This document shows positions 1,779 to 13,559 of a DNA stretch of 64,000 bases, in pieces. Below the pieces are notes generated by a model. The model saw only the letters and a list, made by a program, of their open reading frames with translations, did no database searches and was not told where the DNA came from. Origin of the DNA: a virus (lineage: Duplodnaviria; Caudoviricetes); the IMG/VR virus record IMGVR_UViG_2932189381_000001, positions 24,038-88,037 of that record. The stretch is one strand, 5' to 3'. How positions within the stretch are numbered: position 1 is the first letter of the stretch; every line of letters starts with the position of its first letter. The position numbers were made by a program, and so were the translations under genes.

Positions 1779-2282
1779 TTAGGCGACAGCCTTTTCAGCG
1801 ACCTTCCGCAGCCATGCGGCCCGGGACAGCCCCTCCGTCTTCGCTGCGGACTCGATCTTGTCGAGGAGGTCGCGCGGGTACGCCACATTGATCGTGGGAC
1901 CAACCGCCGGCCTGCCGCCCTTGGAGTCCGGGCCAGACTCGTCCGGGGTGTCGGGGAACCACTTCTCCAGTTCCGCCTCCGCCTCCGTCCCGCCGCTCTT
2001 GACCATCCATTCGCGGGCCTCGTCGTCGGTGAGGAAGCGCCACACGTTGGGGCCGTTGAACTCGGGGCGGGAGTCCTGGTTCTCGACCCAGCGCCCGCCG
2101 CTGGTGCGGTACAGCTGCGCCCGGTTGACCTGCATGCCGGAGATGACGCCCCGCATGACCTGTCCGTCCCAGCGGGAGGACTCTTCGAGGATGTGTTCGG
2201 CGGCGTCCAGGTCGAACCAGCCGAGGCGGTCGTAGTCGCCGTCGTAGTTCATTTCGGTGCTGTAGATCGTGATGCGGTTCAT
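1779..2282 (-). CDS. Protein with C-terminal ribbon-helix-helix (CopG-like) DNA-binding domain
   Basis: GRPAVGPTINVAYPRDLLDKIESAAKTEGLSRAAWLRKVAE is a typical RHH pattern. Confidence 0.75.
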   Translation of the reverse strand: MNRITIYSTEMNYDGDYDRLGWFDLDAAEHILEESSRWDGQVMRGVISGMQVNRAQLYRTSGGRWVENQDSRPEFNGPNVWRFLTDDEAREWMVKSGGTEAEAELEKWFPDTPDESGPDSKGGRPAVGPTINVAYPRDLLDKIESAAKTEGLSRAAWLRKVAEKAVA

Positions 2283-2321
2283 GGCTACTCCGGGTCAGGT
2301 AGTGGGGTGGTGTGGGGTTCG

Positions 2322-2585
2322 TCAGCGGTCGTTGTCGGCGGGCTTCTGGAGTCGGGCGAGCTGCTCGCGCAGCTTCTGGATCTCGTCGCTCTGCTCCCTG
2401 ATCACCTGGTCCTGGGCGGTGATCGTGCGGTTCCGGTCGGCCACGCGGTCGTTCAGTGCGGCGATCTGGGCGCGCTGCCTTTCGATCTTGGCGTCCTGCT
2501 TGGCGATCTGACGCTTCTGTCCTTCGATCTTGGTGAGCAGGTCTTCCTTGCTGGAGTCCTGGTTGACGCGGAAGGAGGCGGTCAT
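2322..2585 (-). CDS. Coiled-coil hypothetical protein
   Basis: Heptad pattern; AAAGG RBS. Confidence 0.6.
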   Translation of the reverse strand: MTASFRVNQDSSKEDLLTKIEGQKRQIAKQDAKIERQRAQIAALNDRVADRNRTITAQDQVIREQSDEIQKLREQLARLQKPADNDR

Positions 2586-2636
2586 GGCGGGTGCCTTTCT
2601 GGGTTCGCGGGTGGCGGTCAGAGGGTGGTCGGGCTG

Positions 2637-3467
2637 TCAGTAGTCGCCCTTCAGGGAGGTGATGTAGGTGGAGGCGTCGGCCTTGGACATCTCCTCGATG
2701 CCGGCGCGGTCGGTGGGGCCGTAGAAGAAACCGCCGCCCTCACCGGAGCACTCGCGGCGGGCGAGGAGGGTGAGGATGAACTCGACCTGCTTCGGGGTGG
2801 CCAGGGGGCCCTTGGTGCGGCGGGCCTCCTCGAGCTGGGCTTCGCGGGCCTCACGGACGGCAGCCTCGGCGGCTTCGATGGCGTCCTGTTCGGCCTTCTT
2901 CTGGATGCGCTCCGCGGCGCCCGCAGCGTGCTGGGTGGCCCACTGGATGAGGATGTCGGCCTTGGCGGTGGCGGTGGGGTCGGCGTCCGCGTTGATCTTC
3001 TGGTCGAGGTTGCGCGGGTCGCCTTCGGTGGAGCCGGTGACGCGCCAGTAGGTGGAGCGGTCCATGCGGCCGGCGCGGGGGATGGTCTTCTCGATACGGA
3101 ACCCGGCGGGGGTGTTCTCGTAGAACCGGGCGTAGAACTCGGCGTGGGCGCGGCTGTAGAAGGTGGCGTCGTAGATGCGGGAGTCCTTGCCGGGGCCGTA
3201 GCCGGCGGGGGTGCCGTCGGTGCGGACGATGGTCCAGGTGGTGCGCTCCTCGCCGTACTTGACGGTGGTGCCCTGCTCGAGGCGGTAGGTGGTCTCGGTC
3301 ATGCGGGCCTTCCTCTGGCCGATGGCGATGCGGTGGGTGAGGGAGGCGGTGTCGATGACCCACTGGCCGGCGACCTTGGTGGCGGCGATGACGCCGCGGC
3401 GGCACCAGGCGCGGATGGTGCGGATGGTGACGTTGGCCTGAGTGGCGGCGGCAGTGGTGTTCATCAT
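2637..3467 (-). CDS. MerR/Xis-like HTH domain protein
   Basis: N-terminal TTAAATQANVTIRTIRAWCRRGVIAATKVAGQWVID; C-terminal ATPKQ...SKADASTYI motif; GGAGG RBS. Confidence 0.75.
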   Translation of the reverse strand: MMNTTAAATQANVTIRTIRAWCRRGVIAATKVAGQWVIDTASLTHRIAIGQRKARMTETTYRLEQGTTVKYGEERTTWTIVRTDGTPAGYGPGKDSRIYDATFYSRAHAEFYARFYENTPAGFRIEKTIPRAGRMDRSTYWRVTGSTEGDPRNLDQKINADADPTATAKADILIQWATQHAAGAAERIQKKAEQDAIEAAEAAVREAREAQLEEARRTKGPLATPKQVEFILTLLARRECSGEGGGFFYGPTDRAGIEEMSKADASTYITSLKGDY

Positions 3468-3485
3468 GGTTTCCCTCCCCGTGGG

Positions 3486-3540
3486 GTTTTCGATACTGAA
3501 AACCTAGAGGAGGGGGTGAGGGGTTGTCAATACTGAAAAC
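3486..3540 (-). promoter_or_regulatory. Sigma70/HrdB-type promoter overlapped by two operator repeats
   Basis: Minus strand TTGACA(3530-3525)-N18-TAGGTT(3506-3501). GTT(T/G)TC(G/A)ATACTGAAAAC occurs at 3486-3503 and 3523-3540. Confidence 0.7.
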
Positions 3541-3545
3541 GCAAG

Positions 3546-3574
3546 GAGCCTCCCGGTCATCGACCGGGAGGCTC
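3546..3574 (-). terminator. Hairpin terminator at the 3' end of the mini-array
   Basis: GAGCCTCCCGGTC-ATC-GACCGGGAGGCTC, 13-bp perfect stem, followed on the minus strand by CTTGCGTTTT. Confidence 0.7.
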
Positions 3575-3756
3575 AACCCCGCGAGTGCGGGGAGCAGCTA
3601 CCAACACCCCTAAGCCTGGGGCCACCCCCGCTGACGCGGGGAGCAGAACCAACTCACGCCCTACGTAGGGCCACCCCCACATCGGCGGGGAAGAGGCCGC
3701 TTCCCAGCAACCTCCGTGTCCATCGACTGGAACACCCCCGCAGCGGCGGGGAGCAG
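3569..3756 (-). CRISPR. Orphan type I-E-like CRISPR mini-array: 4 repeats, 3 spacers (32, 20, 20 nt)
   Basis: 29-nt repeats on the minus strand: 3756-3728 CTGCTCCCCGCCGCTGCGGGGGTGTTCCA; 3695-3667 CTCTTCCCCGCCGATGTGGGGGTGGCCCT; 3646-3618 CTGCTCCCCGCGTCAGCGGGGGTGGCCCC; 3597-3569 CTGCTCCCCGCACTCGCGGGGTTGAGCCT. All keep the I-E CCCCGC-N4-GCGGGG stem (one G-U) and an 8-nt 3' handle. Confidence 0.88.
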
Positions 3757-3869
3757 CGCCGGTCTCCCGGCGGGCCACCACTATGGCACGTGGCACCGAC
3801 AGCTCGCAGGGAAACCGACAGCCCGTCAGGCCCGCGCCACCTCGAGCGGCGCGGGCACCGGCTGGGCGC

Positions 3870-4631
3870 CTACCGAGGGAACCGCGTCAGCCACGCAGGG
3901 AGCGGCTTGTCGTCGGCCCAGTAGTGCAGCAGCGCGTACTTGTACGACAAGAGGTCCACGGCCCGCACCGAGTGCAGCGCTTCCGGCTCCTCCCGACCGA
4001 GCTGCGCCAGAGCCCGCTGCCGCTTGTCCCGGTACACCTGGGGCCGCTTCCGCTCAAACTGCAGCAGCAGCCGGCGCAGCTGGTCGTCGTCGAGCTGGTT
4101 CGCCGACGCGTACAGGCCGTCGAGTTCCAACCGCATCCGCTTCTCGCGCGCGTCCTCGCCCGCGCGAGCGGCAGCGAGCGCGGAGGAATGTTGGTCGCCG
4201 GCATCTTCTTCATCCGTACTTCTTCCGTCACTACTTACTGAAGAGGTACCGCCCGCCGACGTCGCGCCGACCGACGTGCCGCCGACCGACGTGCCGCCAG
4301 CGGTACCCCGGTCCTGCGGTACGTCGTACACCTCAAGCACGGTGATGAAGCGTCCTCGAGGACCCTTCTCCTTCCGGCGGATCATGTATCCCGCCGCCTC
4401 CAATTCGGCGAAGGCTGCGCGCAGTCCACGCCGCCCCTCGCCGACCACATCGCCGCGGTGCCGCCGTGCACGGTCCGACAGGGCGTCGGCGTTCGTCTCC
4501 CAGCCCGACGGCCGGCTCAGTAGCTCGGCCAGCACGCCGCGCGCCAAGTACGTGAGCCGGTCGTCTCGCAGCAGCGCGTTCGGCAGGATGGTGAAGTTGT
4601 CCGCTGGTCTTGAGCGGCGGATCTTCAGCAC
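3870..4631 (-). CDS. Putative replication initiator (N-terminal winged HTH, phage O-like)
   Basis: NFTILPNALLRDDRLTYLARGVLAELLSRP..W...AFAELEAAGY, followed by GGTSV repeats. Confidence 0.7.
   Translation of the reverse strand: MLKIRRSRPADNFTILPNALLRDDRLTYLARGVLAELLSRPSGWETNADALSDRARRHRGDVVGEGRRGLRAAFAELEAAGYMIRRKEKGPRGRFITVLEVYDVPQDRGTAGGTSVGGTSVGATSAGGTSSVSSDGRSTDEEDAGDQHSSALAAARAGEDAREKRMRLELDGLYASANQLDDDQLRRLLLQFERKRPQVYRDKRQRALAQLGREEPEALHSVRAVDLLSYKYALLHYWADDKPLPAWLTRFPR
4243..4302. repeat. Four tandem 15-bp iteron-like repeats inside the rep gene
   Basis: gaggtaccgcccgcc/gacgtcgcgccgacc/gacgtgccgccgacc/gacgtgccgccagcg, next to a relatively AT-rich tract at 4204-4242. Confidence 0.55.
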
Positions 4632-5988: not shown

Positions 5989-6744
5989 ATGGTGAAGGAT
6001 CCAGCGCAGGGCAAGACTCCGCGCTACGTAGTGATCGCGGATGAGCTGCGTGCGCGGATCAAGGCCGGCGAGTTCTCGGAGACGGGCAAGCTCCCGAGCG
6101 AGCGAGTGCTCACTGAGGAGTTCGACGCGGCCCGGAACACGATCAGGGATGCGCTCCAGCTGCTACGCGTCGACGACCTGATCGAATCGCGCGGCGGATC
6201 GGGTGTGTATCTGCGCAGCTTCCAGCGTATCCAGCAGGACGCCGTCGAGCGCCTGTCTCGGGAACAGTGGGGCGCCGGCCGTGCCATCTGGGACAAGGAT
6301 CTCCAGGGCCGTCCCCGCAGTGAAGACGTGAAGGTGTTCGAGGCGGACCCGCCCGAGCATGTGGCCCGGACTCTTGGTGTTCAGGGGCAGAAGGTCTGGT
6401 GTCGGGACAAGCTCTACCGGGCCGAAGGGCGCATCACCATGCACTCGGTGGCCTGGTATCCGGCTGACCTCGCCGAAGGTACGGCGATCACCGAGCAGAA
6501 CACGGGTCCAGGTGGCGCCTATGCCCGGCTGGATGAGGTCGGCCATGGGCCTGCTCGGTTCAGCGAGGGGATCGAGGTGCGGCTCCCGCTATCGGCTGAG
6601 TCGAAGACGCTGGGCATCACGATGAGCACACCGATCATCCTTATCGTCCGAACGGCCTACGACTCGGAGGATCGCCCGGTCGAGGTCAATGAGATGAAGC
6701 TCGACTCGGACAGCTACAGGCTGATCTACAACTTCCCCTCCTGA
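5989..6744 (+). CDS. GntR/HutC-family regulator with UTRA domain (KorA/KorSA/TraR-like transfer repressor)
   Basis: IADELRARIKAGEF...KLPSERVLTEEFDAARNTIRDAL...GSGVY; UTRA end RTAYDSEDRPVEV; upstream of the tra module. Confidence 0.92.
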   Translation: MVKDPAQGKTPRYVVIADELRARIKAGEFSETGKLPSERVLTEEFDAARNTIRDALQLLRVDDLIESRGGSGVYLRSFQRIQQDAVERLSREQWGAGRAIWDKDLQGRPRSEDVKVFEADPPEHVARTLGVQGQKVWCRDKLYRAEGRITMHSVAWYPADLAEGTAITEQNTGPGGAYARLDEVGHGPARFSEGIEVRLPLSAESKTLGITMSTPIILIVRTAYDSEDRPVEVNEMKLDSDSYRLIYNFPS

Positions 6745-6761
6745 CCTGCCCGTTACCGCTT

Positions 6762-6792
6762 AGCCCCCGGCTTCACGGTCGGGGGCTTTCTT
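6762..6792 (+). terminator. Rho-independent terminator
   Basis: AGCCCCCGGC-TTCACG-GTCGGGGGCT followed by TTCTT. Confidence 0.7.
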
Positions 6793-6802
6793 GTGTCTGC
6801 GC

Positions 6803-6867
6803 AACCTGTCTAGAACCAATCCGTTGACCGGAGCTGCCTGGACTGTTTAAGTGGTCCTAGACAGGTT
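6803..6867 (+). promoter_or_regulatory. Transfer-operon promoter flanked by inverted Kor boxes
   Basis: AACCTGTCTAGAACCA (6803-6818) and TGGTCCTAGACAGGTT (6852-6867), a 15/16 inverted match around TTGACC (6824). Confidence 0.7.
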
Positions 6868-6914
6868 CCGGCGACCGGGGCCTACCGACCGAGCTATGCC
6901 CGAAAGGAGATCCC

Positions 6915-7151
6915 ATGCGCGACACCGCCCCGGCCACCACGGAGAAGCTGCTCCCGGCCGCCGACGTGGCGAGCGCCCTGAACCTCTCGCTCACCGCCGT
7001 GTACCGCCTCGTCCGCAGTGGCGACCTGCCGAGCCACCGCTTCGGCAAGGGCAAGATCCGCCCGCGTGGCGTCCGTATCCCGGAGTCCGCCATCGAGGCG
7101 TACCTGAACGGCTCCCTCACCGCCCCGACTGCCGCCGAGGAGGCCGCGTGA
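6915..7151 (+). CDS. Excisionase-like HTH_17 DNA-binding protein
   Basis: LLPAADVASALNLSLTAVYRLVRSGDLPSHRFG...VRIPESAIEAYL; AAAGGAG RBS. Confidence 0.85.
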   Translation: MRDTAPATTEKLLPAADVASALNLSLTAVYRLVRSGDLPSHRFGKGKIRPRGVRIPESAIEAYLNGSLTAPTAAEEAA

Positions 7152-7576
7152 TGACCGCCCCCGCCCCGACCGCCCCGCTTCCCTCCGCCGCCGCCGAGGC
7201 GCTGGCCCGGTTGGAGCGTGCGTTCCTCCCGCTGGCCGTGGTGCGTGCGGTGACCCGCTACGAGACCGCGGCACTCCGGTTCGACGAGCTGTCGGCGCGC
7301 CCGGCGTCGAAGCTGTCGCCGGCGGAAGCCGACGCGCTGCGCCTGGCGCAGGAGACGATGACGGCCGAGTTCGCCGTGCTGGCGAAGGCAGGCCGGACGG
7401 ATCTGCTGGCGCCGCTGGAGGTGGCCACCGCGTACCGGTACGCGGCAGCGCACTGCCGGGACCTCGCGGCGGTCGCCGACTTCGACGGTTGCCTCGCCGC
7501 GCAGGACGAGATGGCCATGTGTCGCTGCCGACTGGAGCAGGCGGGTCGGCTCGACCTGATCGAGGTCGTCCGGTGA
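7151..7576 (+). CDS. Hypothetical protein with an internal duplication (..AGRTDLL/..AGRLDLI)
   Basis: Coupled to the upstream gene; GGAGG RBS. Confidence 0.6.
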   Translation: MTAPAPTAPLPSAAAEALARLERAFLPLAVVRAVTRYETAALRFDELSARPASKLSPAEADALRLAQETMTAEFAVLAKAGRTDLLAPLEVATAYRYAAAHCRDLAAVADFDGCLAAQDEMAMCRCRLEQAGRLDLIEVVR

Positions 7577-7782
7577 GCGCCGACCTGGCCCGTCTGTCGG
7601 CGGCGCGGGAGACGGCGGACCGGATCGTCGCCCAGATCAGTGACTGGGACGGTGGGGAAGCACCCCGTCTGCTGGTCACGGTCATCGACCCGGAGACCCG
7701 GGAGCGGCTGGGGACGGCGTTCGTCACCATCCGTCCCGAGCCGGCCGCCCGGCCCCTGCGCCTGGTGCGGGAGGCGTCGTGA
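7573..7782 (+). CDS. Hypothetical protein
   Basis: GTGA overlap; GAGG RBS. Confidence 0.55.
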   Translation: MSADLARLSAARETADRIVAQISDWDGGEAPRLLVTVIDPETRERLGTAFVTIRPEPAARPLRLVREAS

Positions 7783-8090
7783 GCGACCACGAGAAGACGA
7801 AGGAGCCGCTGCCGCAGCGCCCGAGGGGCCCGCACCCCTACCTGTTCGGCTCCGCGCTGTGAGCCCCGCCGAGCAGGGCGCGGCTGCGAAGGCGCTCGCG
7901 GAGCAGACCCGGCAGCGGATCGCGGCTGCGAAGGCTGCCGCTGCTGCTGCTGAGGCCGCCCGTAAGGCCACCGGCCGGCGCTAACCCCCTGATCGCCGTG
8001 GGGTGGCGGATGTTTCGGCTCCCCTCCGTCCCGCCACCCCGCGGCCCCAACCCCCATCTATCCCGGCTTGACCATCCGAGGAGATCAGCC

Positions 8091-8423
8091 ATGCCTTATT
8101 CCGCCGAGATCATCGAGCCGACCGCCTGGCCCGAGGGCGTCATCGCCCGCTACCTCACCGTCGGCGGCGGCACCATCGACCTCGCCCTCAAGCAGATCCG
8201 CCACACCTTCCCCGACGGGATCTTGGGCACCCGCGGCCTGACCTCGGCAACGTGCACCGGCTGCCCGGCCACTGGCGACTTCCCGCACTGGCGCAGCCGC
8301 ACGGGCGTGTGGGCCGGCACGTGGGATGAGGACATCCCCGCCGAGGAGGTCGAAGCCGACGCCCGCGCGTGGGCCCAGGCCCACGCGGAGACCTGCCGGG
8401 CCATGCCCCGACCCGCCGCCTGA
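8091..8423 (+). CDS. Hypothetical protein, paralogue of 59305 and 59586 (WPxGVIARYLTVGG family)
   Basis: GAGGAG RBS; shares N- and C-terminal motifs with the two paralogues. Confidence 0.75.
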   Translation: MPYSAEIIEPTAWPEGVIARYLTVGGGTIDLALKQIRHTFPDGILGTRGLTSATCTGCPATGDFPHWRSRTGVWAGTWDEDIPAEEVEADARAWAQAHAETCRAMPRPAA

Positions 8424-8476
8424 CCAACCCCACCCCCCTCACCCCCACCACTTCGACCCGGAAGGGCTCACCTGCC

Positions 8477-8719
8477 ATGTCTCCTTACCTGTTCTCCGCC
8501 GACCTGGGCGTCACCGACCTCGGCCAGCACGTCCGCGCCACCACGACGATCGCCGAGTTGGACGCCGAAGCCCGAGTGCTGTCCATCAGCGACCTGTTCG
8601 CCGGCTACGCCGCCGCCGTCGCGTCCGGCGACCGGTCCCGGATGGCGCAGATCCGCCTCGCCGCCGGCCCCGACCTGCTCGCCGAACTCGACTGGGTCAA
8701 GTACCCGGCCGCCGCGTGA
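8477..8719 (+). CDS. Hypothetical protein
   Basis: GAAGGG RBS; GC3-biased frame. Confidence 0.6.
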   Translation: MSPYLFSADLGVTDLGQHVRATTTIAELDAEARVLSISDLFAGYAAAVASGDRSRMAQIRLAAGPDLLAELDWVKYPAAA

Positions 8720-8940
8720 TGGGCGTCGACGTGTGGGAGGGCCGGCCCCTCGAGGAGCGCCGGCCGGTGAGCAGGCCGCTCGCCGAGGAGATCCACTACC
8801 GGCTGTACGACCAGGCCGGGCGGCTTCTCAGCTTCAACTCGACGAACAGTCTCGCCTCCCTGGTCGCGGACGTCGCCGTCACAGCGCGGGAGTACCCGGC
8901 CGGCCGTATTACCGCCGTCCAGTACGACGGCCCCGCCTGA
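8719..8940 (+). CDS. Hypothetical protein
   Basis: TGATG coupling. Confidence 0.55.
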   Translation: MGVDVWEGRPLEERRPVSRPLAEEIHYRLYDQAGRLLSFNSTNSLASLVADVAVTAREYPAGRITAVQYDGPA

Positions 8941-9077
8941 CCCCCCGTTCCGCCGTCGCACGGTCCATGACCCCCCGTCTCCGTGCGGCGGCAGCCCCGG
9001 CCCGGCCACCACGGGCGTAGCCGCAAAGGCAACCGGGGCGCTGCACCACCCGACCACCAACCCGAAGGGAGCCCGTC

Positions 9078-9287
9078 ATGGGCCTGTTCAAGAAGTCCGC
9101 CGAGGAGAAGGTCGCGGTCGCCGAGATGCGCGCCGCGGACCGTCGCCTGAACGAGAACTCCGACCGGGAGCGCCGCGCCGGTATCCGGGACGAGACGCCC
9201 GAGTACCAGCGCCTCAACGCCGCCGCGAACGAGGCCGCCGCGAAGGTGTCGTTCTGGCACGGCGGCACCCGGCGCAAGACCCGCTGA
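9078..9287 (+). CDS. Small hypothetical protein of the transfer operon
   Basis: AAGGGAG RBS; clean frame. Confidence 0.65.
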   Translation: MGLFKKSAEEKVAVAEMRAADRRLNENSDRERRAGIRDETPEYQRLNAAANEAAAKVSFWHGGTRRKTR

Positions 9288-9386
9288 CCGGCTGTCCGCG
9301 GCGCCCGGCCCGTACCGGGCGCCAAGGAGAACTGGCGCAGCACCACCCCCACCCCACCGACCATCCACTCGAAGGGATCACCCGTC

Positions 9387-10748
9387 ATGACTGCCAGCCC
9401 GCCGAAGCTGAACGGCCAGGCCAGGCCGCCCGTGTTGGGGGACTGGCAGCCCATAGGAGCCGCCACCCCCGAGCCCGAGACCTCCGCGAGCACCGAGTCG
9501 GCGCCGCAGCAGGACAGTGAGCTCGTCGCCCAGGCGCAGGCCGAAGCGATCCGCGCGCAGGCGTGGGCGGAGTCGGAGGAGCGTCGCCTCGCCGCCGAGG
9601 CGGAGAAGGAAGCCGCGCTGAAGCGCGCCGACGCCGAAGCTGAGGCGATCCGGGTGAAGGCGGAGGAGGAGGCGCGGAAGCTGCGCCTCGCCAACGACCG
9701 GCAGGAGCGCAAGGCTGCCGAGGAGCAGGCCGCGTCCGAGGCGCGGATCGCCGAGAGCCGGCAGCGGAAGGCGGACGCCGACCGCGCCCGCGCCGACGCC
9801 GACCGTCAGGCCAAGGAGCAGCAGCAGACCGAGGCCGAGAAGGCTGAGGCTGTCGAGAAGTCCAGCGAGCGGTGGCGGAACGTGGCCCTCGGCTTCTATG
9901 GACTGTGCGCCGCGGTCGCCCTGCCGGTGCAGATGGCCGCGTTCTACGACCCGGACGCCAAGTACCTCCTCGTCGCTCCGGTCTTCATCGAGGTGATCGC
10001 CCTGGTCGCGCTCGTGGGTGCCGCGGCTGCGGTCACGGACGGGCGCCCGCAGTGGCACTACCGGCTCGTCGCCTGGGTCGGTGCGCTCACTGCTGCGACG
10101 ATCAACATCGTTCACGGCCTGGACGCCTTCGACCCCGCGACCGCGTTCGGTACCGCCCTCGCCTCCGTCGCCGGCCCCGGCATGTGGGACCTCCACGAGC
10201 ACGGCCGTCTCCGGAAGCGCAACGGCAAGCCGTCGTGGCGAGAGCGCCGCGCGCAGCGGAAGGAAGCCGAGCGGATTGCCGCTGAGAAGGTCGCGGAAGA
10301 GGTGCGCGAGGCGGAGCGCCAGGCGTACCGCGAGAAGGCCGAACGCGAGGCCGTGCAGCAACTGACCGAGCGTCGCGCGAGCCTCTTCCCGAAGGTGTGG
10401 CAGCACGCCGAGAAGCTCGCCGCCGACCTCGGCGAGACGACCGTCACCCAGGCCATCTGGGAGCGCGCCAAGCTCGACGTCGAGGGCGCGAAGCCGGGCG
10501 AGTCCGCCGAGGTTCTGCGGATGCGTAACGCCGCCGAAATGAGGGTCGAAGCCGCCCGCGAAAAGCGGTGCGTAAACGGATCATCACAGCAGGTCGCATC
10601 GCAAGTGCTCGGCCCGAAGAAGACCCGCGTCTACAACCCTCCTGCGCGCCGCGGAGTGCGCACGTCGGGCGACTCCCCGAAGCAGTCGCCGGGAGCCCGC
10701 CGACAGGCATCCATCGCCGCCAAGAACGCCCGCCAGAACGCCAACTAA
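9387..10748 (+). CDS. Spd-like (SpdB/DUF2637-type) coiled-coil plus multi-TM plasmid spread protein
   Basis: Ala/Glu/Arg coiled coil followed by about 4 hydrophobic helices; upstream of traB. Confidence 0.65.
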   Translation: MTASPPKLNGQARPPVLGDWQPIGAATPEPETSASTESAPQQDSELVAQAQAEAIRAQAWAESEERRLAAEAEKEAALKRADAEAEAIRVKAEEEARKLRLANDRQERKAAEEQAASEARIAESRQRKADADRARADADRQAKEQQQTEAEKAEAVEKSSERWRNVALGFYGLCAAVALPVQMAAFYDPDAKYLLVAPVFIEVIALVALVGAAAAVTDGRPQWHYRLVAWVGALTAATINIVHGLDAFDPATAFGTALASVAGPGMWDLHEHGRLRKRNGKPSWRERRAQRKEAERIAAEKVAEEVREAERQAYREKAEREAVQQLTERRASLFPKVWQHAEKLAADLGETTVTQAIWERAKLDVEGAKPGESAEVLRMRNAAEMRVEAAREKRCVNGSSQQVASQVLGPKKTRVYNPPARRGVRTSGDSPKQSPGARRQASIAAKNARQNAN

Positions 10749-10771
10749 CTCACCCCTGGAGTGATCAAACT

Positions 10772-11233
10772 ATGAACGCCTCTCTTCGCCGCATCGCCGT
10801 CTCGACCACCGCCACCGTCGCCCTCCTCGGAGGGGCCGCCGCGACCGCCACCGCCGCCGCTCCGGAGCACGAGGCGACCGTCGTCGCGATCGCCCGCACC
10901 GACATCCAGCCCGGCCTCACCAACGGGGTCGCTCCCGCCAACGGTGGCAGCGGCGCACCGCTGAACGGCCCGCAGCAGCAGATGCCCGCCGGCTACCCGC
11001 AGCAGATCCAGACCCAGGCGTCCGGAGCGGCGATCGGCACGGGTGTTGCCGCCATCGCGATCCTCGGCCTCGTCGTCTTCTTCCGGGTCAAGGGCGGCCA
11101 CCTGAAGGTCGGTGACGCGGTCGTCGTCACGATCCTCGGTGTCGCGCTCGCCGGAACCGTGATCGGCGGCATGGCCGATCAGCTCACGGACACCGGTGTC
11201 GCTTCGCTCAGCAACATCCTCGGCGGCCTCTGA
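10772..11233 (+). CDS. Membrane protein of the transfer operon (signal-like N-terminus, 2 TM)
   Basis: GGAG RBS; hydrophobic segments. Confidence 0.65.
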   Translation: MNASLRRIAVSTTATVALLGGAAATATAAAPEHEATVVAIARTDIQPGLTNGVAPANGGSGAPLNGPQQQMPAGYPQQIQTQASGAAIGTGVAAIAILGLVVFFRVKGGHLKVGDAVVVTILGVALAGTVIGGMADQLTDTGVASLSNILGGL

Positions 11234-11294
11234 TCCACCCCTCGTGCGGGGCCCGGACCGGGCCCCGCCCCTGACCCCTGGAAGGACAGGCCCC

Positions 11295-13559
11295 GTGGCC
11301 ACCGAAACCGAGTACCAGCCCTACGAGCCGTTCGAGCCGGTCGACTGGCTCGCCGAGGAGCCGGCCAAGCCCGCAGAGCCGTCCCGCGCCGACCGCGCCA
11401 AGGTGGCGTTCAAGGAGCAGCGCGGCCACGCCGCCACCCGCACGAAGGACTGGCTCGCGGGTGGCGACCTCGACCAGGTCACCGTCTTCGAACTCGCCGC
11501 CAAGAAGAAGCAGCGCAAATACGACAGCGGGCTGACCCAGCAGGAGCGGACTGCTGCCGAAGCTCGCGCCCGCTTCGAAGTCGCCAAAACCCAAGCCGAA
11601 GCCAGCGAGAAGGGCGGTAACGCCAGCAGCCTGGCCGGCTACGCCGGGAGGACCGCCGCGGCAGAAGCCAAGCTCGAGCAGTTGCGAGCCCGGCCTGTCC
11701 TCCCGCCGACCGACTGGGAGATCGCCGCCGCCCGCACCAGTAAGAAGGCAACCCGTGCCGCGATCGTCGCCGGGGGCGGACTGGGTGCCATGTCCGTCCT
11801 GGGCGGGGCGATAGAGCAGGCCGCGACCGGGCAGCCGATGCTCCTTGCCGTGGTCACCACCGCCGCCGGGTACGGCTGGTACCTGATCTCCCGCCCGTTC
11901 GTCCGCGGTCAGGCTGGTGAGGCCCCTTTCGGGATGGCCCCGGCGAGCCTGCCCGCCACGTTCCAGGCGGAGCCGACCGGGGGAGCGATGGGCGTCGGAT
12001 CGCACGTCGTCATGAACGTCGAGCAGCTCGCCGACGACGCCAAGCCCTTCCCGCTGCGGGGCGCGTCCACGCCTGAGCGGCTCGCCGAATGCGTCCTCCT
12101 CGCCGCCCGCGCCGAGAACGTGCCGATCGTCGAGGTGTCGGACGTGACCCGTCAGCCCTGGGGCTGGCAGTGCACGGTACGCGTCGGCGAAGGCACTCCC
12201 GAGGCGATCATTTCGAAGGCGGGTGACCTCGAGACCCGGTTCGATCTGAAGACGAACGGTGTCCGCCCGCAGCCCCTCAGGGCGCGTCGCGCCTGCGCGA
12301 TCCTGCGCTTGGTCGAGGGCGACCCGTTCGCCACCGCCCCCGGCCTGCCCTACCGGGCCCCCAAGTCCCTGTCGATCACCGACGCGTTCCGTATCGGCAC
12401 CAGTGTCGGCGGCGACCCGCTCGAGCTGTCCCTGGCCGGCGTCATGGGCCTGTGGGTGGCGGCGTCCGGCGGCGGCAAGACCGGCATCCTGCAGGCGCTC
12501 GCCGAAGGAGTGACGGCCTGCCGGGACAACATCACCATCGACCTGGATCCGTTCGGGGACGGCCTGGAGGACCTCGGTGACGCCGTCCGGATCACCGCGC
12601 GCAGCAACGAGCAGATCGAAGCGGTCCTGCTGTTCTTCCTGGTCATGGCCAAGGGCCGGGCCCGGCTGCGGGCGAAGCTCGGCATGGGCAAGAAGTGGAA
12701 GCCCAGCCCGAAGCACCCCGCCGTCACGATCTTCTTCGACGAACTGCCGAAGGCCAGCACCCTGGCCAAGCGCCTGTACAACGACCTGCTGCTCGTCGGC
12801 CGCAAGGAGCTGATCGTCGTGGAGGCCGCGTCGCAGGGCGGCCAGAGCTCCTACCTCGGAGCGAACATCGCCCAGATGGTCGCCCTCAAGGCAGTCGGCC
12901 CCTGCAAGGTCGAGGACACCAGGTCGGTCCTCGGGGACGGCTCCGTGAAGGAGGGCTACCTCCCGCACAAGCTGTCCCCGGCGACCCAGACCGACCCCAA
13001 GGACGCCGGGCACATCTTCATCCAGGGCGTGCCCGGGATGGCGGACGAGCCGATCGAGTACGCCGTCCATGAGGTGCCGTCCGCGGTACTGCGGCAGCTC
13101 GGGCAGGAGCGGCTTGAGGCCGGCCTGCTGGACCCGGACCAGGACAGCCTCGACGCGATGCGCGGCGTGGACCTGCCCGAGTACGTCGAGCCGGAGTACG
13201 ACAAGGACGGCGACCTGAAGAAGCCGGCGCCGGTCGAGCTCCTCACGTGGGAGCAGCTGCTGCGCCTGTGCGATGCCGAGCCGCCCGCGGGTGCCGAGCT
13301 GTCGGACGGCCCAGCGCGGGCTGCGGTCGAGGACGCGGTGACCGTCATGGAGAAGGCGGGCGTCGACCGGATGAAGACCGAGGTGCTCCTTGCCGCACTC
13401 CAGGAGTACGACCCGGACGCCTACGGGGAGTTGGGTGTCGACGAGTTCAAGGCGCTGCTGAAGAAGGCGGGCGCCGGGGCGCCGCTGACGCTCGGTCCGA
13501 TCGGTGAGGAGAAGAATCCGCGCGGCTTCAAGCGTGATCGCCTCCGTCACCTCCTGTGA
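11295..13559 (+). CDS. traB: TraB-type FtsK/SpoIIIE conjugative DNA translocase
   Basis: Two TM helices, Walker A AASGGGKT, Walker B TIFFDELP, GRK motif, C-terminal wHTH ending NPRGFKRD; GAAGGA RBS. Confidence 0.85.
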   Translation: MATETEYQPYEPFEPVDWLAEEPAKPAEPSRADRAKVAFKEQRGHAATRTKDWLAGGDLDQVTVFELAAKKKQRKYDSGLTQQERTAAEARARFEVAKTQAEASEKGGNASSLAGYAGRTAAAEAKLEQLRARPVLPPTDWEIAAARTSKKATRAAIVAGGGLGAMSVLGGAIEQAATGQPMLLAVVTTAAGYGWYLISRPFVRGQAGEAPFGMAPASLPATFQAEPTGGAMGVGSHVVMNVEQLADDAKPFPLRGASTPERLAECVLLAARAENVPIVEVSDVTRQPWGWQCTVRVGEGTPEAIISKAGDLETRFDLKTNGVRPQPLRARRACAILRLVEGDPFATAPGLPYRAPKSLSITDAFRIGTSVGGDPLELSLAGVMGLWVAASGGGKTGILQALAEGVTACRDNITIDLDPFGDGLEDLGDAVRITARSNEQIEAVLLFFLVMAKGRARLRAKLGMGKKWKPSPKHPAVTIFFDELPKASTLAKRLYNDLLLVGRKELIVVEAASQGGQSSYLGANIAQMVALKAVGPCKVEDTRSVLGDGSVKEGYLPHKLSPATQTDPKDAGHIFIQGVPGMADEPIEYAVHEVPSAVLRQLGQERLEAGLLDPDQDSLDAMRGVDLPEYVEPEYDKDGDLKKPAPVELLTWEQLLRLCDAEPPAGAELSDGPARAAVEDAVTVMEKAGVDRMKTEVLLAALQEYDPDAYGELGVDEFKALLKKAGAGAPLTLGPIGEEKNPRGFKRDRLRHLL

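What the first reader, a model, noticed from the sequence alone, without database searches (positions are those of the whole stretch)
3598..3666. Two 20-nt spacers, exactly 12 nt (two Cas7 steps) shorter than canonical
Seen: repeat periods are 61, 49 and 49 nt. The short spacers (minus strand) are ACGTAGGGCGTGAGTTGGTT and AGGCTTAGGGGTGTTGGTAG; both are 20 nt, lower in GC than the element, and share TAGGG...GTTGGT. Established: Cas7 binds 6 nt per subunit, and shortened crRNAs build smaller Cascades with weak or no Cas3 interference. Inference: two spacers of the same in-register length suggest selection, either for non-cutting RNA-guided repression (of a host cas/defence promoter or a rival element's promoter) or for Cas sequestration. 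This would be a mixed array with one cutting guide and two silencing guides.
Basis: partly seen in the sequence, partly recalled or inferred. Interest (0 to 1): 0.88.

Follow-up and report, generated by a model that had tools for sequence, protein, structure and literature searches.

The report
Prophage mimic of CRISPR antitoxin guides
A Streptomyces-type prophage carries a small cas-less imitation of a type I-E CRISPR array whose two 20-letter guides copy the short RNAs that related bacteria use to keep a CRISPR-linked membrane-protein gene switched off, so it is most likely a phage anti-CRISPR RNA of a recently described kind and not a new principle.

Summary
In detail: on the minus strand at 3569-3756 lie four type I-E-like repeats with spacers of 32, 20 and 20 nt, between a promoter-like site and an intrinsic terminator, inside an 88-kb provirus without cas genes. 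The 20-nt spacers are not random. Streptomyces type I-E loci hold cassettes (small two-TM ORF plus a repeat-spacer-repeat unit with a 20-21-nt pseudo-spacer) in which the pseudo-spacer matches an AAC-flanked site at the 5' end of the ORF in 12 of 12 seed positions. Spacer S3 belongs to one class of these pseudo-spacers (11/12 seed positions at three host sites; 0 of 5000 shuffles), S2 to a second class (11/12 at one site; 30 of 5000). This is the anatomy of 'Cracr' arrays (Liu et al., bioRxiv 10.1101/2024.10.29.618823): viral mimics of host CreA/CreR RNAs that redirect Cascade to silence creT or cas promoters. Limits: each spacer has one seed mismatch to the nearest sampled site, the exact S3 site was found in 0 of 401 genomes, the host is unknown, nothing is shown experimentally. 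Short viral spacers cluster at 20-21 nt, so the strict 'two Cas7 steps' register is only partly borne out. The 32-nt spacer has no target. The scan found such arrays before on other DNA. New member of a known kind.

The parts
3780..3801 (-). promoter-like site of the array: TGTCGGTG, 8 nt, CATAGT; ends 23 nt before R1
   Evidence: 2 matches of the loosened motif in the window against 0.15 expected; same motif before the syntenic array of L005 and before L084, L110, L207, L208; the -10-like GCCATAGTGG is shared by 5 of 128 arrays and L196, L207, L208. Likeness to the actinobacterial RecA-NDp promoter rests on a consensus I recall, not on a call.
3728..3756 (-). repeat R1 (29 nt), intact hairpin, 5'-handle part GTGTTCCA
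   Evidence: handle like the GTGTTCCG repeat variant of a second Streptomyces I-E type
3696..3727 (-). spacer S1, 32 nt, canonical length, target unknown
   Evidence: only chance-level matches
3667..3695 (-). repeat R2 (29 nt), stem kept through one G-U pair
3647..3666 (-). spacer S2, 20 nt: pseudo-spacer of class B (seed like host units of G155 and G043)
3618..3646 (-). repeat R3 (29 nt), 24 of 29 to the canonical Streptomyces I-E repeat
3598..3617 (-). spacer S3, 20 nt: pseudo-spacer of class A (seed like host units of G225, G033, G128)
3569..3597 (-). repeat R4 (29 nt), intact hairpin; its last 6 nt are part of the terminator stem
3536..3574 (-). intrinsic terminator: 13-bp stem, 3-nt loop, then CTTGCGTTTT
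   Evidence: formed in the predicted fold
3870..4631 (-). context: replication-initiator-like HTH gene upstream of the array
   Evidence: PHROG 1456, 37920, 4707, 270; used to find related elements
2637..3467 (-). context: HTH_17 gene downstream, first gene of a separate three-gene operon with two 21-nt direct repeats (3483-3503, 3520-3540) before it

Best explanation
The stretch 3536-3801 (minus strand) is a self-contained small-RNA gene of a provirus: promoter, four type I-E repeats, three spacers, terminator. It has no cas genes and depends on the host's type I-E proteins. Inferred course: host Cas6e cuts the transcript at each hairpin, giving one 61-nt and two 49-nt crRNA-like RNAs; the 49-nt RNAs build shortened Cascade complexes. 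Their 20-nt guides imitate the pseudo-spacers of host CreA-like RNAs, which in Streptomyces I-E loci pair over the first 14 positions with an AAC-flanked site at the 5' end (5' UTR, ribosome site, start codon) of a small two-TM ORF lying between cas3 and cse1 or beside the CRISPR array. By analogy with CreTA, that ORF is a toxin kept silent by Cascade. [quoted passage not shown] S2 and S3 serve two different host cassette classes; short length plus partial pairing means binding without Cas3 cutting. Shown here: anatomy, the host cassettes, the class-level sequence match. Inferred: transcription, processing, complex size, repression, toxicity.
For: Anatomy. Provirus, no cas: terminase, portal, head, tape measure; no Cas7e, Cas6e, Cse1 in 88 kb. 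Host cassettes: in an unbiased set of 33 cse1 loci S3 hit AAC-flanked sites in L168 and L172, each followed by a small ORF and then a repeat/20-21-nt pseudo-spacer/repeat unit; cas3 C-terminus on one side, cse1 on the other. Six host modules: pseudo-spacer matches its own target in 12/12 seed positions in 5 and 11/12 in 1, with co-variation between modules at positions 2-5. ORF is coding: G225 vs G128 22 identical, 28 synonymous-only, 21 changed codons; two hydrophobic segments. S3: 11/12 seed positions at 3 AAC-flanked sites among 3352, 0 of 5000 shuffles reach 3; S2: 1 site, 30 of 5000. S3 matches the G225 target in 15/17 paired positions, more than that host's own RNA (12/17). Class-B unit was found by a repeat-only pattern blind to spacer content (14 matches in 13 of 401 genomes, 0 in reversed controls). 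Other viral arrays carry the same classes: L131 and L052 12/12 to host pseudo-spacers, also L200, L208. Short spacers form a second length mode in viral arrays. Literature: Cracr RNAs, I-E Cracr arrays of 2-3 spacers, CreA mimicry silencing creT, short guides giving complexes with fewer Cas7-type subunits (abstract, passages, sections 7, 10, 11); shortened I-E crRNAs assemble with fewer Cas7, interference needs more than 20 nt (abstract).
Against: Each short spacer has one seed mismatch to the nearest sampled host site (S3 position 3, S2 position 4); seed mismatches weaken Cascade binding in E. coli (established knowledge). The exact S3-type site (AAC + seed) was found in 0 of 401 Streptomyces genomes searched, and the 9 metagenome matches to a longer version are low-GC contigs without I-E repeats, i.e. 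chance. The provirus's host genome is not held, so a cognate I-E locus is not shown. In 2 of 2 genomes that hold both a similar proviral array and cse1 (G274, G206), no class A or B site lay in the 10-14 kb fetched around cse1. The host cassettes are rare: clear homologues of the class-A ORF in 4 of 401 genomes. S2's statistic is modest. The minimum-energy fold pairs R2 with R4 instead of forming all four local hairpins. Toxicity of the small ORF, and any effect on cas transcription, are inferred only. In the preprint the tested I-E array mimics CreR (casA promoter); CreA mimicry was tested for type I-F only.
Confidence: 0.7

Rival explanations
1. Pure decoy (Racr-like): the array only soaks up Cas6e, Cas7 and other Cascade subunits; the spacer sequences are irrelevant and short merely to pack more hairpins per base and avoid self-cutting.
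For: Four intact hairpins in 188 nt with own promoter and terminator; Racrs are established (listing and abstract of PMC10651486); many other viral short spacers (L028, L033, L069, L101, L133 and others) matched none of the six host classes I had.
Against: S3 and S2 share their seeds with host pseudo-spacers and their targets far beyond shuffles, and the same seeds recur in unrelated viral arrays; a decoy needs no such conservation. Sequestration is part of the best explanation as well, so this rival differs only in denying guide function.
Confidence: 0.12
2. Relic: a piece of a host CreA unit or CRISPR array picked up by recombination and decaying in the provirus, without function now.
For: All four repeats differ (19-23 of 29); one seed mismatch per short spacer to sampled targets; only 1 other element among 9 close relatives of the rep gene keeps an array at this place (L005 = L014).
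Against: Every stem is kept (one through G-U), the unit has a promoter-like site and a terminator fused to the last repeat, the same architecture recurs in many viral contigs, and S3 matches the target beyond what the host RNA does (15/17 against 12/17), which descent from CreA alone does not explain.
Confidence: 0.1
3. Guides against rival mobile elements or for the provirus's own regulation: Cascade is borrowed to repress or cut competitors (superinfection exclusion) or a provirus promoter.
For: [quoted passage not shown]
Against: No match of S1, S2 or S3 elsewhere in the 88-kb record; S1 finds only chance-level matches in phages and plasmids and no exact 24-nt match in viral contigs; 20-nt guides are at or below the length needed for interference.
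Confidence: 0.06

Closest known systems
Cracr arrays (viral crRNA-like regulatory anti-CRISPR RNAs; Liu et al., bioRxiv 10.1101/2024.10.29.618823), including the Salmonella Se29 prophage CracrIE array
   Same: Prophage-borne, cas-less, repeat-like units of the host's type I-E, 2-3 spacers, shortened pseudo-spacers (24 nt in the tested I-E case), own transcription unit, different spacers of one array aimed at different variants of one CRISPR type.
   Different: The tested I-E array copies CreR and acts on the casA promoter with an AAG PAM; here the model is a CreA-like unit beside a small ORF, the flank is AAC, the host is Streptomyces. Whether this record is among the 219 candidates cannot be seen: supplements are closed.
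CracrIF1 / CracrIF2 of Pseudomonas aeruginosa mobile elements
   Same: They mimic host CreA1/CreA2 and silence the creT promoter so that the guard toxin stays off; viral guides are short (17-21 nt) and give complexes with four instead of six Cas7-type subunits.
   Different: Type I-F, RNA toxins with proline codons, and viral guides shorter than the host's (23-27 nt); here viral and host pseudo-spacers have the same length (20-21 nt) and the presumed toxin is a small membrane protein. No linked Acr was identified here.
Host CreTA / CreR modules (CRISPR-regulated toxin-antitoxin; Cas-regulating RNA)
   Same: The Streptomyces cassettes found here have the defining layout: degenerate repeat - pseudo-spacer - repeat, partial PAM-proximal match to a site at a neighbouring promoter region inside a cas locus.
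   Different: The window's array is not in a cas locus and has no adjacent toxin gene, so it is a mimic, not a CreA. I found no paper naming such cassettes in Streptomyces (both searches were weak tests).
Racr (RNA anti-CRISPR, solitary repeat units; PMC10651486)
   Same: Viral repeat mimics that bind Cas6 and Cas7-type proteins.
   Different: Racrs act by sequestration alone and need no guide match; here the guides match host regulatory sites.
Engineered shortened type I-E crRNAs (PMC5159557, PMC6859484)
   Same: Spacers shortened below 32 nt assemble into Cascade with fewer Cas7; more than 20 nt is needed for interference (abstract).
   Different: Laboratory constructs in E. coli; natural short spacers here are 19-22 nt, not confined to steps of 6.

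Membership tests
Cracr array | Encoded on a virus or plasmid, outside any CRISPR-Cas locus | tested here: met
   Record classed provirus; terminase, portal, head, tape measure in the window; no Cas7e, Cas6e or Cse1 in 88 kb.
Cracr array | Repeat-like units that keep the host repeat's hairpin and handles | tested here: met
   Four 29-nt units, stems kept, 20-24 of 29 to a canonical Streptomyces I-E repeat that adjoins Cse1/Cas3 loci.
Cracr array | Pseudo-spacer resembling a host CreA/CreR pseudo-spacer over at least 9 PAM-proximal positions | tested here: met
   S3 vs G225/G033/G128 units and S2 vs G155 unit: 11 of 12 seed positions, 13-14 of 20 overall. One mismatch inside the seed in each case, so 'met' holds at class level.
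Cracr array | PAM-flanked target at a cas or creT promoter of a host the element infects | tested here: inconclusive
   AAC-flanked sites of the right class exist in Streptomyces I-E loci, but the exact cognate site was in 0 of 401 genomes and the host is unknown.
Cracr array | Cas-dependent maturation and anti-CRISPR or anti-CreTA activity | not testable with these tools
   Needs RNA and phenotype data.
Racr | Solitary repeat unit acting without guide complementarity | tested here: not met
   Four repeats with spacers whose seeds match host sites.
Host CreA/CreTA | Lies inside a CRISPR-Cas locus next to the gene it represses | tested here: not met
   No cas gene in the record; no site for S2 or S3 in the 88 kb.
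Viral mini-array for inter-virus conflict | Canonical spacers with protospacers in related viruses | tested here: inconclusive
Type I-E CRISPR repeat | 29-nt unit with a 6-7-bp G+C stem, 4-nt loop, 8-nt 5'-handle part, period 61 | tested here: met
   Rfam holds no matching family at either threshold.

The most novel reading that the evidence does not exclude
The host side may be the new part: Streptomyces type I-E loci carry at least two classes of CreTA-like cassettes in which the guarded gene encodes a small two-TM protein, the pseudo-spacer is only 20-21 nt, and the flank is AAC; one class sits wedged between cas3 and cse1, the other heads a CRISPR array. The provirus array would then be a multiplexed antidote that joins guides for both classes to a unit bearing the handle of a second I-E repeat variant, possibly under a DNA-damage-type promoter so that it fires at prophage induction.
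Probability: 0.3. Interest if true: 0.65.

Novelty: new member of a known kind. Interest (0 to 1): 0.5.

Why it matters
It gives a concrete, testable actinobacterial example of phage RNAs that copy a host's CRISPR-linked regulatory guide, in a genus where type I-E is common (Cse1 in 127 of 301 genomes searched; this tally includes the unpublished genome G133, a weak match) and where phage-host engineering matters. It also points to host cassettes (small membrane ORF plus 20-nt guide) that could explain how Streptomyces guards its CRISPR system, and shows that natural short guides sit at about 20-21 nt, the length at which Cascade binds without cutting.

Tried and rejected
Self-targets: no match of S1, S2 or S3 elsewhere in the 88-kb record, with up to 8 (S1) or 4 (S2, S3) mismatches, nor seed-based hits above chance. 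S1 targets: phages and plasmids gave only E about 1-9 matches; exact 24-nt PAM-proximal part in viral contigs 0; in 65 + 20 Streptomyces cas-region loci only chance-level 11/12 seed hits without AAC, one of them over a likely cas3 start in L224/L225, which I reject as chance (8 of 20 further positions match). An S3-like 11/12 hit in L237 is an ordinary spacer of another array. Duplication origin of S2 and S3: not supported. Array region against annotated phages: no match. Rfam: nothing. Expression: no RNA holder listed; read laying therefore not used. Acr next door: the two larger proteins of the downstream operon have no relative among solved structures by sequence, Pfam gives only HTH_17 and, by PHROG, a repressor-like C-terminus; left open. 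Small host ORFs: no Pfam family. RecA-NDp-type promoter: motif present but in only 4 of 51 arrays plus L207 and L208, and the consensus is recalled; the one paper read (PMC5087735, passages) shows it only in a figure. Literature on Streptomyces CreTA: searches found none, but 'crea' also matched 'create', so one search is no test. Supplementary tables of the Cracr and CreR papers, which may list this record or these cassettes, could not be seen.

Full report
What is there. On the minus strand of the window, four 29-nt repeats (3756-3728, 3695-3667, 3646-3618, 3597-3569) enclose spacers of 32, 20 and 20 nt. The stem motif CCCCGC-N4-GCGGGG occurs three times here against 0.09 expected in the window and nowhere else in the 88,037-bp record; the fourth stem keeps pairing through one G-U. 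The repeats are 20-24 of 29 identical to the repeat CTGCTCCCCGCACGCGCGGGGATGGCCCC of a canonical Streptomyces array, and arrays of that family adjoin Cas3 and Cse1 genes, so the type I-E assignment holds. Rfam has no family for it.

A separate small transcription unit in a provirus. The array lies between a replication-initiator-like gene (3870-4631) and an HTH_17 gene (2637-3467), all leftward. Twenty-three bases before R1 lies TGTCGGTG-N8-CATAGT; the last repeat runs straight into a 13-bp terminator hairpin followed by a T-run. The record is classed as a provirus; the window encodes terminase, portal, major head and tape-measure proteins and an FtsK-like protein; Cas7e, Cas6e and Cse1 families find nothing in the 88 kb. 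The predicted fold is far more stable than shuffles (z -5.15) and forms the terminator and two repeat hairpins, but pairs R2 with R4.

Relatives. Among 9 loci with a close relative of the rep gene (4 genomic, 5 viral), only L005 and L014, two copies of one element, have an array at the same place, with the same kind of leader and a single 32-nt spacer. Of these, 41 have at least one pair 45-56 nt apart; some are unrelated palindrome pairs. In the 46 loci whose repeats have I-E-like flanks, the 119 spacers are 32 nt (76), 31 or 33 (10), and a second mode of 19 (2), 20 (8), 21 (10), 22 (1) nt; 23-28 nt make up 6, one of them 26. Many short-spacer arrays end in a terminator fused to the last repeat, as here. 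A sub-family shares the leader GCCATAGTGG: the window, L034, L112, L113, L141 (5 of 128 arrays) and the genomic L196, L207, L208; L141 has spacers of 33, 19 and 20 nt in the window's order.

The host side. Cse1 was found in 127 of 301 genomes of the genus of L004 (the tally includes the unpublished G133). Scanning the 33 cse1 loci for seed-weighted matches, S3 hit two AAC-flanked sites, in L168 and L172. Both lie roughly 200-300 nt upstream of the likely cse1 start on the opposite strand, just after a -10-like box, and run through a ribosome site into the start codon of a small ORF. Behind the ORF comes a -10-like box and a repeat / 20-21-nt pseudo-spacer / repeat unit whose pseudo-spacer repeats the target's first 14 positions; the next gene ends in a Cas3 C-terminal domain. 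The ORF (69-91 aa, two hydrophobic segments, no Pfam family) has clear homologues in 4 of 401 genomes, each in the same layout, and evolves as a coding gene (22 identical, 28 synonymous-only, 21 changed codons between G225 and G128). A pattern built on repeat flanks only, with 20-23 free bases, gave 14 matches in 13 of 401 genomes and none in reversed controls: three class-A units, two units of a second class (G155, G043) and one more (G344) that head CRISPR arrays next to a small hydrophobic ORF, four provirus-type arrays (G274 twice, G206, G024, G119), one ordinary short spacer and two non-CRISPR sites. In class B the site is again AAC-flanked, and a Cas3 HD domain gene lies nearby. Over six modules the pseudo-spacer matches its own target at 12 of 12 seed positions (1-5, 7-11, 13-14) in five and 11 of 12 in one, while the seeds differ between modules: co-variation that argues for pairing.

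How the window's spacers fit. S3 matches the class-A targets of G225, G128 and G033 at 11 of 12 seed positions; among 3352 distinct AAC-flanked 20-mers in 65 loci no shuffle of S3 (0 of 5000) reaches three such sites. Against the G225 target it pairs at 15 of 17 non-flipped positions, the misfits at 6, 12 and 18 being the positions that Cascade flips out, and it fits positions 15-17 where the host's own RNA does not (12 of 17). S2 matches the class-B target of G155 at 11 of 12 and its pseudo-spacer at 14 of 20; 30 of 5000 shuffles find one such site. The viral L100 shares S2's seed, and L131, L052, L200 and L208 carry class-A seeds. So one array holds one guide for each of two host cassette classes.

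Results against. Each short spacer has one seed mismatch to every sampled site. The exact S3-type site is in 0 of 401 genomes; a longer version found 9 metagenome contigs, all of 37-60% G+C without I-E repeats; the class-A pattern in 91 genomes found only the known G033 site. G274 and G206, which hold similar proviral arrays and cse1, show no class A or B site in the 10-14 kb fetched. The host of this provirus is not held. The other viral short spacers matched none of my six host classes.

The 32-nt spacer. R1's handle part GTGTTCCA resembles the GTGTTCCG repeat variant of a second Streptomyces I-E type (30 of 39, 32 of 49 and 30 of 31 repeats in L224, L225, L234), so the first unit may serve another I-E variant. 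No target was found.

Comparison with what is known. A preprint (10.1101/2024.10.29.618823; abstract, passages, sections 7, 10, 11 read) defines Cracr RNAs: viral crRNA-like RNAs that copy host CreR or CreA, compete for Cas proteins and turn them into repressors of cas or creT promoters; 219 candidates, 20 I-E arrays of two or three spacers, hosts including Actinomycetota; spacers of one array aim at different variants of one type; I-F Cracrs of 17-21 nt give complexes with four Csy3. The CreR preprint (passages) and the shortened-crRNA paper (abstract) supply the host side and the length threshold. The window's array meets the structural features and the class-level guide match; the cognate target and all activity remain untested. 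Earlier follow-ups of this scan reached the same family for prophage arrays on other DNA. I therefore file it as a new member of a known kind; the Streptomyces cassettes with a small membrane ORF may be undescribed, which I could not check.

Noticed in passing
L168/L178, L172/L179, L180, L181 (Streptomyces genomes G225, G128, G385, G033): CreTA-like cassette between cas3 and cse1 on the opposite strand: -10 box, AAC-flanked site, small two-TM ORF (69-91 aa), second -10 box, repeat / 20-33-nt pseudo-spacer / repeat. In L172 about 80 nt around the cas3 end and cse1 start stand on both sides of the cassette, as if it had been inserted with a duplication.
   Followed up: partly
L205/L222 (G155), L206/L223 (G043), L204 (G344): Second cassette class: the short pseudo-spacer unit is the first unit of a CRISPR array, preceded by a small hydrophobic ORF and an AAC-flanked matching site.
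   Followed up: partly
window 3780-3801 (-): TGTCGGTG-N8-CATAGT before the array resembles the actinobacterial RecA-independent DNA-damage promoter as I recall it; also before L005, L084, L110, L207, L208. Would tie the array to prophage induction.
   Followed up: partly
L112, L131, L144, L207: A third class of very short spacers (14-15 nt) with a shared sequence pattern between I-E-like repeats in viral arrays; no host counterpart sought.
   Followed up: no
window 1779-3540 (-): Three-gene operon right after the array (HTH_17 protein, 87-aa coiled coil, 167-aa protein with a repressor-like C-terminus) behind two 21-nt direct repeats: acr-aca-like layout; no relative among solved structures by sequence.
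   Followed up: partly
window 3655-3668: The end of R2 and the start of S2 form a perfect 14-nt palindrome (5'-handle part pairs with spacer positions 4-9); similar handle-spacer pairing is possible in S3, L131 and L052. Meaning unknown.
   Followed up: no
L051, L053, L083, L094 and similar viral contigs: Pairs of inverted G+C-rich hairpin units about 50 nt apart that share the stem motif but are not CRISPR-like; they inflate raw counts of short periods.
   Followed up: no
window 5989-13559: GntR/UTRA regulator, GIY-YIG-GntR fusion and FtsK/SpoIIIE-like protein inside a provirus with full head and tail genes: conjugation-type genes in a phage.
   Followed up: no
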